64,000 bases of DNA from Alphaproteobacteria bacterium (GTDB lineage Bacteria > Pseudomonadota > Alphaproteobacteria > GCA-2746255): NCBI GenBank assembly GCA_965249135.1, contig OZ252220.1, positions 1,024,001-1,088,000 of the forward strand, read 5' to 3'. Below, piece after piece: positions 24,001-30,000 of the stretch. The position numbers were made by a program. The stretch's first letter is position 1. The number at the start of each line of letters is the position of its first letter.

Positions 24001-27000
24001 TCGTGAGTGGCGCAACCATAGGAATTTATCCCTTGATAGGCTGGTTGATCGTCTTGTTGAGCGAATTGAAATATCAAAATCAAGTCTTAGTAGGATAGAG
24101 CGAAGCAAGCAGCCGTATACACAGCCTATTTTAGAGGCCCTAGCTTGGGCGCTTAACTGTGATCCGGCCGACCTAATTATGAGAGACCCGAAGAGTGAAG
24201 TATGGACTATATGGAACAATATTAAGGACTTACAACCCAGAAAGCAGCGACAGATCGCTAACGTGGTAAGGGCGCTTATAGAGGTGGCATAAATGTGCTT
24301 TAACTATGCAAGCGGTCGTAGGCGTATTCTGCCGTCATCTTAAGTGTTACGAACCTGCCGAGTGGTCGTAGCCTCAACACACTTTCTGACGGTTGTATTG
24401 GCCACCAGCCAACTGACGCTAGGCCAAGGCGTGCAAGGCCAATTCCAGAAACCGACATGAGGGCAATGCCACCCCAGAAAATCCACCACCATGTGGCTTG
24501 GGCAATCAGGCCTGTTTCTGTAATCGCTACCATGGCGATTCCAGCACTAGTAAAACCAACCCAGGGCAGCCAGCGCCAAATACCCATACAACCCCCAGTC
24601 TTGTTGGCGAGACAAGACCGCGGTTATACCCCAGATTCCTCTCAATTTCGCCCATCAGCTTCTTCCTTAAAAAGGCTCTAAAGTAGCCGCCACCGTTAGT
24701 GCGTGGAATATCTTATGCTCGATGTTCCGTGAGGTGCAACTTTTTCTTGACACGCTGTTCCGTCTAGTGCAACATACCTCCAACGATCAACGGAGGCAGC
24801 CATGCCAGAATACCTCACCCCCCGAGACGCGGCCCGCGAGGCAGAGAGCCTGGAGAGCGAGAAAGCAATCCTCGCCCGGCTCCTCGAGGCGTTTGACGCC
24901 TTCCTCTCGGCCACTAGGGACGCCATCGGCGACCTAAATCATCCCTCCGAAATCGAATCCTTCCTTGAAATGCTGGAGTCAGCCGACGCCGACTACTTGA
25001 GAGCGGCTTTCCGGGAAATCAACGAAAAGATCAGCGAGGCCCGTTCCGCTGAGGACACCTTCTACGAAAACCAGGAACGCTCCCAGACCGCCTTCCGGCA
25101 GGCAGGTGTGCGGTGACGCATCAGATTAAAAATCGTTTTAGCGGAGCCGTCATTTTCGAGGCAGTTACGGACCTGCGTGGGGCGGACCTGCACGGGGCGG
25201 ACCTGCACGAGGCGGGCCTGCGCGAGGCGGACCTGCGCGAGGCGGACCTGCGCGGGACGAACCTGCGCGGGGCGGACCTATTCGATGCGGACCTGTGTTG
25301 GGCGAACCTGCGCGAGGCGGACCTGCGCGGGGCGAACCTGCGCGGGGCGGGCCTGCACGGGGCGGACCTGTGCGGGGCGGACCTGCGCGGGACGAACCTG
25401 CGCGGGGCGGACCTGCGCGGGGCGGACCTGTACAAGGCGGACCTGCGCGGGGCGGACCTGCGCGAGACGGACCTGCGCGGGGCGGACCTGTGTGAGGCGA
25501 ACCTGCGCGGGGCGGACCTGCGTTGGGCGGACCTGCGCGAACAGGGCATTTTGCAAATCAATGGCGGCCTGGCCTGGCCCATTTTAATCTGGCCAACCGA
25601 AATGACTATCGGCCGTGAATGCCACACCCATGAAGAGTGGAGTGCGTTTTCCGACCGCAAAATTGCTGCGATAGACGGCAAGAATGCCCTGACGTTCTGG
25701 CGCGAAAATAAGGACTGGCTTTTAGATCGCTGCCGGTGGGCCGCCACGTTCCAGAAAAAAGAGAGGGCGTCATGACCCGGCAGGCCATCCAGGAGGCCCG
25801 TTCCGCCGGGGACACCTTCTGCGAAAACCAGGAACGCTCACAAACCGCCTTCCGCCAGGCGGGTGTGCGGTGACGCATCAGATTAAAAATCGTTTTAACG
25901 GAGCCGTCATTTTCGAGGCAGTTACGGACCTGCGCGAGACGGACCTGCATGGGGCGGACCTGCGCGAGGCGGACCTGCACGGGGCGGACCTATACGGGGC
26001 GGACCTGCGCGGGGCGGACCTGCGTGTGACGGACCTGCACGGGGCGAGCCTGCACGGGGCGATTCTGCACGAGTCGGACCTGCGCGGGGCGAACCTGCGT
26101 GGGGCGAACCTGCGCGGGGCGGACCTGCGCGGGGCGAACCTGAGCGGGGCGGACCTGCACGGGACGATTCTGTGCGAGGCGGACCTGCGCGAGGCGAGCC
26201 TATACGGGGCGGACCTGAGCGGGGCGGACCTGTGTGGGGCGGGCCTGCACGGGGCGGACCTGCGCGAGGCGAACCTGCGCGAGGCGAGCCTGTACAAGGC
26301 GGACCTATACGGGGCGAACCTGAGCGGGGCGGACCTATACGGGGCGAACCTGAGCGGGGCGGACCTGCGCGGGGCGGACCTGCACGGGGCGAGCCTATAC
26401 GGGGCGGACCTATACGGGGCGAAGCTGAGCGAGGCGGACCTGCACGGGGCGGACCTGCGCGGGGCGAACCTGCACGGGGCTGACCTGAGCGAACTGGGCA
26501 TTTTGCAAATTAATGGCTTGGCCTGGCCTGTTTTAATCGGGCCAACCAAAATGACTATCGGCTGTGAATGCCATGCCCATGAAAAGTGGAGTGCGTTTTC
26601 CGACCACAAAATTGTTGCGATGTACGGCAAGAATGCCCTGACGTTCTGGCACAAAAATAAGGACTGGCTTTTAGATCGCTGCCGGTGGGCCGCCACGTTC
26701 CAGAAAAAAGAGAAGGCATCATGACCCGGCAGGCCATCCAGGAGGCCCGTTCCGCCGGGGACACCTTCTGCGAAAACCAGGAACGTTCCCAGACCGCCTT
26801 CCGCCAGGCAGGTGTGTGATGACGCATCAGATTAAAAATCGTTTTAGCGGAGCCGTCATTTTCGAGGCAGTTACGGACCTGCGCGAGGCGGACCTGCGTG
26901 GGGCGATTCTGCACGAGGCGGGCCTGCGCGGGGCGGACCTGCACGGGGCGGACCTGTGCGAGACGAACCTGCGCGAGGCGGACCTGCACGGGACGGACCT

Positions 27001-30000
27001 GCGCGGGGCGGACCTGCACAAGGCGATTCTGCGCAAGGCGGGCCTGCGCGGGGCGGACCTGTGCGGGGCGAACCTGCGCGGGGCGGACCTATTCGAGGCG
27101 GGCCTGCACAAGGCGGACCTGCACAAGACGGACCTGCGCGGGGCGAACCTGTGTTGTGCGGACCTGCGCAGGGCGGACCTGCGTGGGGCGGACCTGCACG
27201 GGGCGGACCTGCACGAGGCGGGCCTGCGCGAGGCGATTCTGCGCAAGGCGGACCTGCGCGAGGCGGGCCTGCGCAGGGCGAAACTGCGTGGGGCGGACCT
27301 GCGTGGGGCGGACCTGGGCAAGGCGGACCTGCGCGAGGCGGACCTGCGCGGGGCGGACCTATACGGGGCGAACCTGCGCGGGGCGGACCTGCGTGGGGCG
27401 GACCTGCGCGAACAGGGCATTTTGCAAATCAATGGCGGCCTGGCCTGGCCCATTTTAATCTGGCCAACCGAAATGACTATCGGTTGTGAATGCCACACCC
27501 ATGAAGAGTGGAGTGCGTTTTCCGACCACAAAATTGTTGAGATAGACGGCAAGAATGCCCTGACGTTCTGGCGCGAAAATAAGGACTGGCTTTTAGATCG
27601 CTGCCGGTGGGCCGCCACGTTCCAGAAAAAAGAGAGGGCGTCATGACCCGGCAGGCCATCCAGGAGGCCCGTTCCGCCGGGGACACCTTCTGCGAAAACC
27701 AGGAACGCTCCCAGACCGCCTTCCGCCAGGCAGGTGTGTGATGACGCATCAGATTAAAAATCGTTTTAGCGGAGCCGTCATTTTCGAGGCAGTTACGGAC
27801 CTGCGCGAGGCGGACCTGCGCAGGGCGGACCTGCACGGGGCGGACCTGCACGGGGCGGACCTGCGCGGGGCGGACCTGCGCGAGGCGGACCTGAGCGGGG
27901 CGGACCTGCACAAGGCGATTCTGCGCAAGGCGGGCCTGCGTGGGGCGGACCTGTGCGGGGCGAACCTGCGCGGGGCGGACCTATTCGAGGCGGGCCTGCA
28001 CAAGGCGGACCTGCACAAGACGGACCTGCGCGGGGCGGACCTGCGCGGGACGCACCTGCGCGGGGCGGACCTGCACGGGGCGGACCTGTACAAGGCGGAC
28101 CTGCGCGAGGCGATTCTGCGCAAGGCGGACCTGCGCGGGACGAACCTGCGCAGGGCGGACCTGCGCGGGGCGGACCTGCGTGGGGCGGACCTGCGCAGGG
28201 CGGACCTGCACGGGGCGGACCTGCGTGGGGCGGACCTGCGCAGGGCGGACCTGCACGGGGCGGACCTGAGCGAGGCGGACCTGCGCGAACAGGGCATTTT
28301 GCAAATCAATGGCGGCCTGGCCTGGCCCATTTTAATCTGGCCAACCGAAATGGCTATCGGCCGTGAATGCCACACCCATGAAGAGTGGAGTGCGTTTTCC
28401 GACCGCAAAATTGCTGCGATAGACGGCAAGAATGCCCTGACGTTCTGGCGCGAAAATAAGGACTGGCTTTTAGATCGCTGCCGGTGGGCCGCCACGTTCC
28501 AGAAAAAAGAGAGGGCGTCATGACCCGCGCCCTTGCCCGTACCGGAGATCCCATTACCTCCCATGCGGCGGCGGATTTCGTCACGCCACATCTGACCAAC
28601 CTTGAGCAGAAGGTTCTCCAGGCGTTAGAGGATTCGCGTTACGGGCTCACCACAAAACAAATTGCCGAAAAGACCGGGATTGACCGGGTCACAGTAAGCC
28701 CACGGATGAAGCCCCTTAAGAATAAAGGCTTGGTTGTTCGTACCGAATCCCGGCGCGACGGCTCGCAGGTATGGAGGGCGGCGTGACCGCCTTCTGGCTC
28801 ACCTTCTTGGAATGGGCCGGGAAGCTTTGCTTCGCCGTGGCGGTGATGTTGGTCGGGGCAATCTTCGCAATGGCATGGATGGGGTCGTGAGATGACCGGC
28901 GGGCCGCAATTCATCAAGGATCCGCTGGTTATCATATATCGGACTGAACCGAAGGGCCCCATCGTAACGAATATCGTGAAGTCTGATCTCGACCATTGCG
29001 GCTTCGGGCTTCTGATCGCGGACCTGATTCGTCATGCCGCTGCCGCCTACGGCGTGAGCGGGGAAGATGTCGTGGATTGGGTGAACCGGGAAATGAACGC
29101 CCCGACTGCGAAGCTTGAAGGGGGGACGCGGCAATGACCGCACTCGCCCGTGACGCGCAAGATTACTGGTCGCTCTGTTGGACGGCTTGGAATGGTCCGC
29201 CGCCGGAACGCGGACCTGCCTGCGACAGGTTGAACTCATTGTCGCTCACGGCCAGCAACCCGGCCTTGAAGAAAGGCGCGTGCTCAACCGTACAGGCAGT
29301 AAGGAAACGGTTCGGCATTCTTCATGTTCTTCCACCGGAACCAAGGGGGGTGACGTGAACAAGTTTGAAAACTTTGCTGTGCCAATTCAAAAGCTGCGCG
29401 GCGACAGGGACTTTATCACTGACAAAGACATCATGGAGCAGCCCGGGATCGCTAACTTCGTTAAAAGATTCCCCGATTACTGGAAGCGTCATCCGCTGCT
29501 AGATGGCTATGCCGGACCTTATCCAGATGAAATCAAGAAATTAACGGAAGAAAAATCAGTGGAAGAACAGCCATGACCAGCCTTCTCCGCAAACTCCGCC
29601 GCCGTGGATTCCGCTTATTGCTTTGGAGGGTGAGGGTATGAACCGGATCGACTTCGAGACACGCGCTTGGGAGATCCTCAACAATATCTCCACGCTGGAG
29701 AGACTTGCCGCCGCCGATCCCGAAGGCGCACGACACGTAAGAGATTGGCTGGCTGACGCGAGCGGCCGGCTTGTCTGCCTATTGGCGAAAATTGAAAGCG
29801 GCCGTTTCAGAAAGGCCGGCTAATGCCACATCAAATCTACCGGACGAAAGACGGCACGCGCGTCCCCTCCGTCACTACCGTGATTTCCCGTTTCAAGGAA
29901 TCCGGCGGCCTCATTCATTGGGCCTGGCAAGAAGGTGTAGATGGCCGGGACTACCGGGAAACCCGCGACAAGGCGGCGGACGCCGGCACCCTCGCGCATT

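What a model noticed while it worked through the whole genome (the two positions that open the first line are those of the whole stretch)
24802..28786. Prophage arrays of hypervariable pentapeptide-repeat genes with a constant head and a constant phage-specific tail domai [...]
Two SU10-like prophages carry, beside their integrase-proximal early genes, head-to-tail arrays of four (1049113-1052522) and three (1136249-1138361) paralogous genes: identical 22-aa N-terminus, 20 to 37 perfect A(D/N)LxG pentads, and an ~80-aa C-terminal domain without Pfam family; units are separated by a 32-33 aa ORF that is a relic of the upstream gene. I read them as a diversifying set of beta-helix decoys or binders (DNA-mimic type) that the prophage uses in phage-host or phage-phage conflict. 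New would be a phage-borne, antibody-like variable surface built on the pentapeptide scaffold.
Evidence so far: 7 paralogs g01120/22/24/26 and g01232/34/36; N-terminus 99% identical, repeat core 59-65% identical and 101-186 aa long. In 196 pentads the inward-facing residues are fixed (L 196/196, A 177/196) while outward positions vary (R/H/Y/C/S/F; G/E/K/R/W/D; D/N/G/I/S). At DNA level the unit is GGG GCG GAC CTG CGC; 1st/2nd codon positions of the outward residues differ in 15-35% of units, 3rd positions in 0.5-15%; changes are mostly G>A and C>T. C-terminal domain: no Pfam hit at E<=1, 512 representative proteins at E<=1e-3, of the few looked at some with pentapeptide or YdcK solenoid repeats in front; matches PHROGs 31567 and 37032, both 'unknown function'. 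AF2 single-sequence model gives the beta- [...]
(Added by a program. Inside this text positions count along the whole contig: contig position 1,024,001 is position 1 of the stretch shown here. "Call 12" and the like, gene names such as g00115 and contig names such as C1 are that model's own, and its searches are not shown. The text may have been shortened before it was handed on; [...] marks where a part breaks off. The agent that wrote the report below was given it as the finding of a first reader that could run no searches.)

Follow-up and report, generated by a model that had tools for sequence, protein, structure and literature searches.

The report
Amplified hypervariable phage pentapeptide-repeat genes
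A prophage carries four tandem copies of an early gene whose rod-shaped repeat protein keeps its two ends constant while its 15-base repeats change quickly in number and in surface residues, a habit shared by a large, unstudied phage protein family of unknown function.

Summary
Window 25113-28523 has four head-to-tail pentapeptide-repeat genes (220-284 aa). A second prophage has three more. All have an identical 18-22 aa N-cap, 21-38 pentads and a ~77 aa C-terminal domain with no Pfam, NCBIfam or PDB relative. The array comes from one illegitimate duplication, and every junction is the same chimera of the downstream gene's start and the upstream gene's tail. In 203 pentads the third codon positions differ from the consensus at 0.5-15% of units. 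The outward first and second positions differ at 12-37%, also in matched trinucleotide contexts, and this is not codon bias.

The pattern is family-wide. In 55 relatives from phages and viral contigs, third positions vary 4.6% and outward positions 20.8%. Two conventional pentapeptide genes of the same genome show 51-57% and 46-47%. Near-identical relatives differ in pentad number. The family is normally single-copy (130 of 134 places) and sits in early regions near repressor, RecT/exonuclease and polymerase genes.

My reading is fast repeat turnover with selection for surface heterogeneity. The function is untested. I favour a host-takeover or counter-defence binder. "SU10-like" is not supported, and "antibody-like" and DNA mimicry are not shown.

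The parts
23897..24292 (+). cI-like HTH regulator (131 aa). It lies divergent from a Cro-like HTH at 23648-23854 (-) and marks the immunity switch upstream of the operon.
   Evidence: Pfam HTH_31/HTH_3 and PHROG transcriptional regulator hits.
24802..25116 (+). Upstream gene g104 (104 aa, no family). Its last ~90 nt are the source of the relic ORFs. Homology with the second prophage starts at window 24777.
   Evidence: and for the start of homology.
25113..25775 (+). Paralog A1 (220 aa). It has an N-cap, 25 pentads (25167-25541) and the C-terminal domain (25542-25772). Its GTG start overlaps the g104 stop (GTGA).
   Evidence: The AF2 model has pLDDT 88.9.
25772..25873 (+). Relic ORF 1 (33 aa), the duplication junction. 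Its ATG overlaps the A1 stop and its stop overlaps the A2 start.
   Evidence: Alignment of the five boundaries and the ORF list.
25870..26724 (+). Paralog A2 (284 aa). It has 38 pentads (25924-26493) and a type II C-terminal domain (26494-26721, 82% identical to that of A1). The repeat region has net charge -17.
26721..26819 (+). Relic ORF 2 (32 aa), with the same junction.
26819..27646 (+). Paralog A3 (275 aa from the ATG). It has 36 pentads (26873-27412) and the C-terminal domain (27413-27643).
27643..27741 (+). Relic ORF 3 (32 aa), with the same junction.
27741..28523 (+). Paralog A4 (260 aa from the ATG). It has 33 pentads (27795-28289) and the C-terminal domain (28290-28520).
28520..28786 (+). 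Downstream winged-helix (MarR-like) gene (88 aa). Its first 8 nt are copied into every junction.
   Evidence: Pfam MarR_2/HTH_11 and the junction alignment.
29823..30461 (+). PD-(D/E)XK exonuclease of the same operon. It is 100% identical in protein to its counterpart in the second prophage.
32866..33855 (+). Tyrosine integrase at the end of the operon.
   Evidence: PHROG 1 integrase and PF00589.

Best explanation
The four genes are tandem paralogs of a phage-specific accessory protein. The protein has a short beta-hairpin cap, a pentapeptide beta-helix and a conserved ~77 aa alpha/beta C-terminal domain.

Shown: one illegitimate duplication joined the start of the downstream wHTH gene to the tail of the upstream gene. 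Every unit carries this same junction.

Inferred: unequal homologous recombination then changed the copy number, giving 4 copies here and 3 in the second prophage, which shares the module.

Shown: the solenoid is encoded by young, homogenised 15-nt repeats. They have almost no synonymous differences but many amino-acid-changing differences at the three outward-facing positions.

Inferred: units are continually duplicated, deleted and converted by slippage or unequal exchange, always in frame. Selection keeps heterogeneity at the outward-facing positions.

Shown: this is a trait of the whole family. The family is normally single-copy and sits among early, recombination and replication genes of temperate and lytic phages.

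Inferred, untested: the protein is made early. It uses the constant C-terminal domain as a fixed module and the variable rod to bind or block a host or rival-phage factor that acts on DNA, such as a nuclease, a restriction or defence protein or a topoisomerase. The array then widens the range of surfaces and lengths on offer, like a gene amplification fixed during an arms race.
For: Structure and origin:
- All three junctions in the window are identical, and the start and stop codons of successive ORFs overlap.
- Seven intact copies sit in two prophages. The two prophages share only the module g104, PRP array, wHTH, g81, g66, exonuclease and g120 at 98-100% protein identity. Repressor, integrase, portal and methylase are not shared.
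- AF2 gives a beta-helix plus a small sheet and a long helix (pLDDT 88.9 and 87.7). Foldseek matches solved pentapeptide proteins (2j8k at 3.2e-9, MfpA 2bm6 at 2.7e-6).

Fast change:
- The A1/B1 repeat regions differ at 16 of 375 nt, against 17 of 2543 nt in the flanks (Fisher p = 6e-7).
- A1 and A4 differ by 1 nt in the C-terminal domain but have 25 and 33 pentads in different order.

Selection:
- G>A occurs at 25 of 203 units at site 13 and 0 of 203 at site 3, both in a CGG context. It occurs at 75 at site 14 and 7 at site 15, both in a GGG context.
- Among 62 distinct unit types, outward sites carry 118 differences and synonymous sites 33.
- Genome codon use is GGG 18%, GCG 37%, CTG 28% and GAT 46%. 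The repeats use GGG 114/114, GCG 176/177 and GAC 145/145.

Family-wide:
- In 55 genes with 1052 pentads, third sites differ at 243 of 5260 (4.6%) and outward sites at 1314 of 6312 (20.8%).
- 22 genes have no third-site variation at all, and outward exceeds third in 52 of 55.
- Two conventional pentapeptide genes of the same genome show 0.51-0.57 and 0.46-0.47.
- Five viral contigs with nearly identical N- and C-terminal parts have 10-26 pentads. P0153 and P0154 differ only by 9 pentads.
- Published: Caulobacter phage GB2A differs from phage RW by a 375-bp (25-pentad) deletion in its pentapeptide gene (PMC11053796, passages read).

Context:
- Here the array lies between the cI/Cro switch and the exonuclease and integrase.
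- In phage BL94 the gene lies directly after DNA polymerase I.
- Of 149 neighbouring ORFs scanned, 9 are RecT, 9 Peptidase_S24, 5 YqaJ, 4 DUF2800, 3 PDDEXK, 2 ERF and 2 SSB.

Arrays are rare: 77 of 80 viral loci and 53 of 54 genome places hold a single copy, and none holds more than 2.
Against: - No function, partner or expression was tested.
- The solenoid charge is not consistently acidic. It is -2 to -17 here. Across the family it runs from -0.50 to +0.27 per pentad, with 7 of 55 genes net positive.
- No conserved neighbour gene points to a target. The largest neighbour cluster holds 6 of 138 immediate neighbours.
- No PADLOC model matches.
- Pairwise pN/pS in the alignable repeats is 1.8-2.7 but rests on few events (2 synonymous against 14 non-synonymous). 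Unit counts are not independent events, because blocks of units are copied.
- dN/dS of the C-terminal domains among paralogs is 0.5-1.0. Some copies may be under relaxed constraint and not specialised.
- Close relatives show no conserved unit order. Composition, not a specific surface, may be what is selected.
- The copy number rests on one assembly.
Confidence: 0.4

Rival explanations
1. Neutral repeat instability on a generic rod. The solenoid is only a spacer or bulk element whose length and mixed composition matter loosely. Slippage shuffles a small alphabet of allowed units. The tandem gene copies are a recent, selectively irrelevant duplication, with some copies decaying.
For: - 15-nt units cannot break the frame, so all variants survive.
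- Unit order is unconserved among near-identical relatives.
- dN/dS of the C-terminal domains among paralogs is 0.5-1.0.
- The solenoid type is interchangeable across the family. Of 148 proteins scanned, 84 have pentapeptide repeats, 13 YdcK repeats and 4 bactofilin, and many have no solenoid.
Against: - Under homogenisation without selection, outward and synonymous sites should be equally uniform. Outward sites instead vary 4.5 times more across 55 genes, and 22 genes have no synonymous variation at all.
- Matched-context sites differ 25 to 0 and 75 to 7.
- All 7 copies are intact, and both arrays keep both types of C-terminal domain.
Confidence: 0.25
2. Prophage-encoded exclusion or defence. 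The proteins are made in the lysogen, downstream of the repressor like rexAB or sieB of lambda (recalled). The variable solenoid senses or blocks proteins of superinfecting phages.
For: - The array lies directly downstream of the cI-like gene on the same strand.
- Pentapeptide repeats are listed among the sensor repeats of bacterial NLR-like defence proteins (bioRxiv 10.1101/2022.07.19.500537, passage read).
- Two heteroimmune prophages in one cell carry different sets of copies.
Against: - Homologs sit in replication modules of Caulobacter phages that were isolated on plates and show no integrase or repressor in the 12 kb examined (BL94 gp020 after DNA polymerase I; PMC11053796, passages read). 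That points to a role in lytic growth.
- No PADLOC hit.
- No effector domain is recognisable.
Confidence: 0.15
3. A Qnr/MfpA-type topoisomerase partner. The solenoid mimics a DNA segment and binds gyrase, either to protect it from poisons or toxins or to tune it for phage replication.
For: - The fold matches MfpA, QnrB1 and AlbG.
- Phages are known to encode gyrase inhibitors, though these are small peptides (review PMC10886550, passages read).
- Five of the 7 repeat regions are acidic.
Against: - NCBIfam Qnr and MfpA models score 45.5 and 53.6 bits against cut-offs of 240 and 360.
- The repeats are perfect, without the loops that the review describes for some family members.
- Charge is inconsistent across the family.
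- Hypervariability is odd for a partner as conserved as gyrase.
Confidence: 0.1
4. Targeted mutagenesis (a diversity-generating retroelement or similar) or an assembly artefact produces the apparent variation.
For: The variation is confined to a few nucleotide sites per unit. Long-read assemblies can miscount repeats.
Against: - The only reverse transcriptases are five identical 393-aa ORFs at least 78 kb from either array.
- The variable sites are G and C, not A.
- The paralogs differ throughout, and short contigs from four runs match internal pieces of A2, A3 and A4 with 0 differences.
- The same pattern is seen in 55 independent records.
Confidence: 0.03

Closest known systems
Pentapeptide-repeat genes of Caulobacter phages BL94, Jess A and RapA (annotated only as 'pentapeptide repeat family protein'), of a Manatee Spring podovirus, and PHROGs 31567/37032
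   Same: - Direct homologs with the same three-part build: IKNRFSG-type cap, near-perfect pentads and the same C-terminal domain at 44% identity.
- They also lie in early or replication regions.
- Repeat number is variable; a 375-bp deletion is reported in GB2A of the related RW cluster (PMC11053796).
   Different: They are single-copy. Here the gene is amplified to 4 and 3 copies with two subtypes of the C-terminal domain. None of them has a tested function.
Qnr / MfpA / AlbG / McbG topoisomerase-protecting pentapeptide proteins
   Same: Right-handed quadrilateral beta-helix of A(D/N)LXX pentads.
   Different: - Scores fall far below the family cut-offs.
- Their repeats are old and heterogeneous, not 15-nt DNA repeats.
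- They end in a short dimerising helix (PMC10886550), not a 77-aa domain.
- They are chromosomal or plasmid genes, not genes of phage early operons.
TAL effector repeats with repeat-variable diresidues (recalled, not tested)
   Same: Near-identical DNA repeats in which variation is confined to a few surface codons. Repeat number changes by recombination.
   Different: The unit is 102 bp against 15 bp and the fold is different. TAL residues read DNA bases, while no code or target is known here.
Viral gene 'accordions': amplification of counter-defence genes (poxvirus K3L, recalled; phage T6 SegB-driven amplification, PMC13096335, listing and start of abstract only)
   Same: Tandem amplification of an accessory gene in a virus, followed by divergence of the copies.
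   Different: Those amplifications were seen arising under a known selection. Here the array is old enough for about 11% synonymous divergence between the subtypes of the C-terminal domain, and the selective agent is unknown.
DNA-mimic host-takeover proteins encoded at the same place in lambdoid phages (lambda Gam; also T7 Ocr and gp5.9; recalled; Ocr and ArdA papers seen as listings)
   Same: Early genes beside the exo/annealase module. Rod-like proteins that block host DNA enzymes.
   Different: There is no sequence or fold similarity. The surface is not consistently acidic.
Diversity-generating retroelement targets and contingency loci
   Same: Localised hypervariability of a surface in a phage or bacterial protein. 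In-frame repeat-number change as in simple-sequence contingency loci.
   Different: There is no adjacent reverse transcriptase and no adenine bias. The repeats change protein length and surface, not expression state.

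Membership tests
Pentapeptide repeat proteins (Pfam PF00805) | Tandem A(D/N)LXX pentads scoring above the gathering cut-off | tested here: met
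   163.7-267.4 bits against a cut-off of 20.2 for all four genes.
Pentapeptide repeat proteins (Pfam PF00805) | Right-handed quadrilateral beta-helix fold | tested here: met
   This rests on a predicted model only. The AF2 model (pLDDT 88.9) has one strand per pentad. Foldseek matches 2j8k at E 3.2e-9, HetL 3du1 at 1.1e-7 and MfpA 2bm6 at 2.7e-6.
Qnr / MfpA quinolone-resistance pentapeptide proteins | Score above the NCBIfam equivalog cut-off | tested here: not met
   Qnr scores 45.5 bits against 240 and MfpA 53.6 against 360. All 17 listed models are below their cut-offs.
Qnr / MfpA quinolone-resistance pentapeptide proteins | Binds gyrase or topoisomerase IV and protects it from poisons; tail-to-tail dimer | not testable with these tools
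   This needs supercoiling assays, MIC tests, and size-exclusion chromatography or a structure.
Phage solenoid + C-terminal domain family (PHROG 31567 / 37032; no Pfam) | C-terminal ~65-77 aa domain with LQI.GL.WPV...M.IG(C).(E).H....W..F.D..I..M....A..FW | tested here: met
   PHROG 31567 scores 4e-28 and 6.9e-40, and PHROG 37032 scores 1.1e-13 and 1.6e-17. There are 504 representative clusters at E<=1e-3. BFVD matches are only phage 'pentapeptide' proteins. A1 and A4 have R in place of the nearly invariant C.
Diversity-generating retroelement target | Reverse transcriptase and template repeat beside the variable region | tested here: not met
   PF00078 gives five identical ORFs at contig 253408, 432521, 574405, 971056 and 1214008. 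The nearest is about 78 kb from an array.
Diversity-generating retroelement target | Variation confined to template adenines | tested here: not met
   The variable sites are G or C in the consensus, and the changes are mostly G>A and C>T. The only consensus A (site 5) varies in 12% of units.
Acidic DNA-mimic inhibitors (Ocr, ArdA, Gam type) | Strongly and consistently acidic surface imitating phosphates | tested here: inconclusive
   The repeat regions carry net -2 to -17. The family ranges from -0.50 to +0.27 per pentad, with 27 genes negative, 21 neutral and 7 positive.
Acidic DNA-mimic inhibitors (Ocr, ArdA, Gam type) | Sequence or fold relationship | tested here: inconclusive
   None is listed among the Foldseek or VIA matches. 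Absence from a list does not exclude a family.
Temperate-phage early (PL-like) operon | Divergent repressor/Cro pair, recombination genes and integrase on the same strand | tested here: met
   HTH pair at 23648-24292, exonuclease at 29823-30461 and integrase at 32866-33855. The second array has an integrase at contig 1141745-1142212.
Repeat-number hypervariable (contingency-type) locus | Length differences between otherwise near-identical genomes | tested here: met
   This is met in relatives: five viral contigs with 10-26 pentads, P0153 and P0154, and GB2A against RW (PMC11053796). Between the two prophages here the arrays differ while the flanks are 99.3% identical. Heterogeneity within one population was not testable.

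The most novel reading that the evidence does not exclude
A large phage protein family uses a pentapeptide beta-helix as a self-diversifying surface. In-frame 15-nt repeat turnover homogenises the scaffold while selection keeps and reshuffles a small alphabet of outward residues. This would be a TAL-effector-like or contingency-type 'variable rod' that lets phages retune a binder or decoy against fast-evolving host or rival-phage factors. In this genome it has been expanded into a standing repertoire of 4 + 3 variants shared as a cassette between two prophages.
Probability: 0.3. Interest if true: 0.8.

Novelty: new variant of a known kind. Interest (0 to 1): 0.62.

Why it matters
Pentapeptide-repeat proteins are abundant, and very few have a known role. 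This work gives three things:

- A defined, phage-specific subfamily of 504 clusters at 50% identity, with a C-terminal domain that has no Pfam family and no solved relative.
- A clear and easily measured evolutionary signature: no synonymous variation but 10-40% variation at outward positions within single genes.
- A natural repertoire of seven variants in one genome.

If the solenoid is a tunable binder or decoy, this would be a new way for viruses to generate surface diversity without a reverse transcriptase. It would also offer a compact scaffold for engineering. If it is only an unstable spacer, it is still a useful marker for phage microdiversity and a warning for assemblies. I found no description of this behaviour in five literature searches. 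The one exception is a remark on a 375-bp deletion in a Caulobacter phage (PMC11053796).

Tried and rejected
- Homodimer of the C-terminal domain (complex prediction, 2 copies): no verdict (score 0.02, mark 0.42). This says nothing either way.
- RNA evidence: no RNA holder was listed among the 12 runs, so expression is untested.
- Laying the contigs of 4 runs (one sample, possibly the source): no contig spans the array, so the copy number is not independently confirmed. A 202-nt 'joint' with 35-nt sides inside A2 is what short-read graphs produce in repeats, and I ignored it.
- Fold of the C-terminal domain: Foldseek against PDB gave no match at E<=0.001 (best 3.3). VIA wide gave a best Z of 4.3 among 48,161 chains. 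The profile against PDB sequences gave a best E of 0.8. This does not show that the fold is new.
- Pfam at E<=10 on 20 members gave only scattered single hits. NCBIfam found nothing for the domain. PADLOC found nothing for the PRPs. The ESM Atlas gave only unnamed viral clusters.
- The search for related loci: the 4-sequence alignment in genome contigs gave one 29-residue match in a Streptococcus contig, which I judge spurious. I then used a degenerate DNA pattern.
- Sixty related genomes (5 of the same genus): no C-terminal domain was found with this query.
- The search for homologous proteins gave only 3 proteins and no names.
- The promoter and terminator scan gave nothing usable on the + strand inside the array.
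- There is no recurrent immediate neighbour gene.
- A face-specific pattern of variation on the four solenoid faces was looked for by eye and not seen. It was not tested formally.

Full report
**What is there**

Window 24802-28786 holds, on the + strand, seven kinds of element in this order:
- a 104-aa gene without any family (g104, 24802-25116);
- four pentapeptide-repeat genes: A1 at 25113-25775, A2 at 25870-26724, A3 at 26819-27646 and A4 at 27741-28523;
- three 32-33 aa ORFs between them;
- an 88-aa winged-helix gene (28520-28786).

All four repeat genes score 163.7-267.4 bits on Pfam PF00805, whose cut-off is 20.2. TRF reports four arrays of a 15-nt unit, with 24.8-37.8 copies, 77-82% matches and no indels.

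The genome is one 2.118-Mb contig with 60.3% G+C. It holds exactly seven copies of the N-terminus and of the C-terminal domain: these four, and three at contig 1136249-1138362.

**Context**

- To the left, on the - strand, lie a portal, a primosomal protein, an MT-A70 methylase and a Cro-like HTH.
- At 23897-24292 (+) lies a cI-like HTH.
- To the right of the array, on the + strand, lie a PD-(D/E)XK exonuclease (29823-30461) and a tyrosine integrase (32866-33855).

The array therefore sits in the early operon that runs from the immunity switch to the integrase.

The second array has the same neighbours. The module g104, PRP array, wHTH, g81, g66, exonuclease and g120 is shared at 98-100% protein identity. 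Repressor, Cro, integrase, portal and methylase have no counterpart or only a distant one. An integrase lies at contig 1141745-1142212. These are two different prophages sharing one cassette.

'SU10-like' is not supported. The portal finds only two metagenomic phage records, at 27.8% identity over 37% of its length, among 50,697 records.

**Origin of the array**

I aligned the five unit boundaries. Each inter-unit stretch consists of two parts:
- the end of a PRP gene plus ATGACCCG, which is the start of the wHTH gene;
- the last ~90 nt of g104.

It is the same in all units, and tblastn hits of the g104 tail show it in both arrays. This means one founding illegitimate duplication, followed by unequal homologous exchange. 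Start and stop codons overlap throughout (GTGA, ATGA, TGATG), so the ORFs form one translationally coupled chain. The overlaps are seen in the sequence. The coupling itself is inferred.

The C-terminal domains fall into two types:
- type I: A1 = B1, with A4, B2 and A3 differing from A1 by 1, 3 and 5 of 234 nt;
- type II: A2 and B3, which differ from type I by 15-23 nt and from each other by 10 nt.

dN/dS among the C-terminal domains is 0.5-1.0, on few changes.

**The repeats**

There are 203 pentads, 21-38 per gene. L is 203/203 and A is 177/203. The consensus is GCG GAC CTG CGC GGG.

Non-consensus fractions are:
- third positions: 0.005, 0.054, 0.089, 0.153 and 0.054;
- outward first and second positions: 0.222, 0.123, 0.251, 0.281, 0.148 and 0.374.

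Nucleotide context does not explain this. G>A is seen in 25 units at site 13 and in 0 at site 3, both in a CGG context. It is seen in 75 units at site 14 and in 7 at site 15, both in a GGG context.

Codon bias does not explain it either. Long ORFs of the genome use GGG for 18% of Gly, GCG for 37% of Ala, CTG for 28% of Leu and GAT for 46% of Asp. The repeats use GGG 114/114, GCG 176/177 and GAC 145/145. They also contain CTA, the rarest Leu codon, 18 times.

The units are therefore copies of one young 15-mer, and what differs between them is mostly amino-acid-changing. Among 62 distinct unit types, the six outward sites carry 118 differences and the six synonymous-transition sites carry 33.

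For the three paralogs that have 25 pentads each, Nei-Gojobori pN/pS in the repeats is 1.8-2.7. The counts are 14 non-synonymous against 2 synonymous, and 23 against 5. These numbers are too few to be significant alone.

Between the two prophages, the A1/B1 repeat regions differ at 16 of 375 nt and the flanks at 17 of 2543 nt (p = 6e-7).

**The family**

The 77-aa C-terminal domain has no Pfam hit even at E<=10, no NCBIfam hit and no PDB sequence hit. HMMER against 1.84 billion representatives gives 504 clusters at E<=1e-3, and the domain is always C-terminal.

I scanned 148 proteins. These were the query plus 147 of the best 150 hits. Three long multi-stretch proteins were dropped. Of the 148, 84 carry Pentapeptide, 13 the YdcK solenoid and 4 bactofilin. 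Many are the domain alone.

AF2 models are confident (pLDDT 88.9 for the full length and 87.7 for the domain). They show a four-stranded sheet, short helices and a long terminal helix. Structure searches for the domain found the following:
- Foldseek against PDB: no significant relative.
- VIA wide: best Z 4.3.
- BFVD: only other phage proteins annotated 'pentapeptide repeat'.
- ESM Atlas: unnamed viral clusters.

Named phage homologs are single genes. In Caulobacter phages BL94, Jess A and RapA the gene lies directly after DNA polymerase I. In a Manatee Spring podovirus it lies between repA-like and parB-like genes.

A degenerate pattern for the conserved motif fetched 80 IMG/VR loci, out of at least 120 matching stretches. 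Of these, 77 hold one copy and 3 hold two. The same pattern fetched 56 genome loci, of which 55 hold the domain. All are single-copy except one Magnetospiraceae place with two copies. The hosts are mostly Alpha-, Beta- and Gammaproteobacteria. I found no place with three or more copies. The closest outside relatives (64% identity) are single-copy too. None of 60 related genomes has the domain with this query.

Among 149 same-strand neighbour ORFs of at least 150 aa (a random sample of 212), the commonest Pfam families are RecT (9), Peptidase_S24 (9), Helicase_C (6), HTH_3 (6), YqaJ (5), DUF2800 (4), ResIII (4), HNH_3 (4) and PDDEXK_1 (3). No single neighbour family recurs.

**The key new result**

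The codon-position signature is a property of the whole family.
- In 55 of 79 genes with runs of at least 8 pentads (1052 pentads), third positions differ from the gene's own consensus at 243 of 5260 sites (4.6%). Outward first and second positions differ at 1314 of 6312 (20.8%).
- 22 genes have no third-position variation at all, 40 have at most 5%, and outward exceeds third in 52.
- Different lineages use different codons for the same consensus residues, so each array is homogenised on its own.
- Site 4 (D/N) is polymorphic in 52 of 55 genes. Sites 10, 11, 13 and 14 are polymorphic in 38, 41, 32 and 44 genes.
- As a control I used two conventional pentapeptide genes of the same genome (contig 322231-323529 and 325149-326477). 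They show 0.51-0.57 at third positions and 0.46-0.47 at outward positions.
- Five viral contigs with almost identical N- and C-terminal parts carry 10-26 pentads in different order.
- P0153 and P0154 differ only by 9 pentads.
- Caulobacter phage GB2A differs from phage RW by a few point changes and a 375-bp deletion (25 pentads) in its pentapeptide gene (PMC11053796, passages read).

**Interpretation**

I regard the following as shown:
- the three-part build of the protein;
- the single duplication junction;
- the fast change of the solenoid relative to its flanks;
- the excess of outward over synonymous differences.

I infer that repeat turnover (slippage, unequal exchange, conversion) homogenises the scaffold faster than mutation does, and that selection keeps heterogeneity at the outward positions.

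What the protein does is not known. Its place among early, recombination and replication genes, including those of phages isolated as lytic, points to a role during phage DNA metabolism or host takeover. I favour a binder or blocker of a host or rival DNA-handling factor, and I read the array as a fixed amplification that widens the repertoire.

Classical electrostatic DNA mimicry is not supported. The repeat regions here carry net -2 to -17. The family ranges from -0.50 to +0.27 per pentad, with 7 of 55 genes net positive.

Qnr or MfpA membership fails the NCBIfam cut-offs. A diversity-generating retroelement is excluded, because there is no nearby reverse transcriptase and no adenine bias. 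PADLOC finds nothing.

The main rival is that only the length and the mixed composition of a generic rod matter, so that unit order drifts.

**Limits**

- There is no expression data and no independent confirmation of the copy number.
- Unit counts are not independent events.
- My pattern search is biased toward one motif variant and was capped.
- The supplements of the cited papers were not read.
- Comparisons with TAL effectors, lambda Gam, Ocr and poxvirus accordions rest on recall.

Noticed in passing
contig 322231-326477 (outside the window), - strand: A third cluster of pentapeptide-repeat genes. Two are intact paralogs of 432 and 442 aa with heterogeneous, conventional pentads. Between them lies a third copy broken into fragments of 90, 95 and 91 aa with internal stops. 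They lack the phage C-terminal domain.
   Followed up: partly
contig 253408, 432521, 574405, 971056, 1214008 (outside the window): Five identical reverse-transcriptase ORFs (393 aa, PF00078 at 120.7 bits each). This looks like a multi-copy retroelement such as a group II intron. None lies near the arrays.
   Followed up: no
window 34659-36983 and 37794-39558: The DNA just right of the integrase is 99.8% identical to contig 1011912-1014236 and 1014341-1016105, about 8-12 kb left of the window. Beyond it (window 38187-51524, - strand) lie further phage genes: an endolysin, a tail fibre, a 1409-aa virion protein and an ejection protein. This suggests a second, adjacent phage-like element or a duplication flanking the prophage.
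   Followed up: no
window 24300-24587 (-): A 95-aa ORF rich in W, G and hydrophobic residues, possibly a small membrane protein. It lies between the cI-like gene and g104 and matches no family in Pfam or PADLOC.
   Followed up: partly
L141, L147, L151, L154, L168 (one Roseovarius MAG chromosome, OX638333.1): One genome carries five separate single-copy loci of the same solenoid + C-terminal domain family, at five different places on the chromosome.
   Followed up: no
proteins P0007 and P0056: Two representatives carry two [pentapeptide + C-terminal domain] units fused in one polypeptide. Tandem duplication of the unit has therefore also happened elsewhere, here without a stop codon between the copies.
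   Followed up: no
window 15618-17255 (+) and 21695-22729 (-): The prophage encodes two DNA methyltransferases (PHROG 67, and MT-A70 / PHROG 359). I did not examine any link to the G>A and C>T pattern of the repeats.
   Followed up: no
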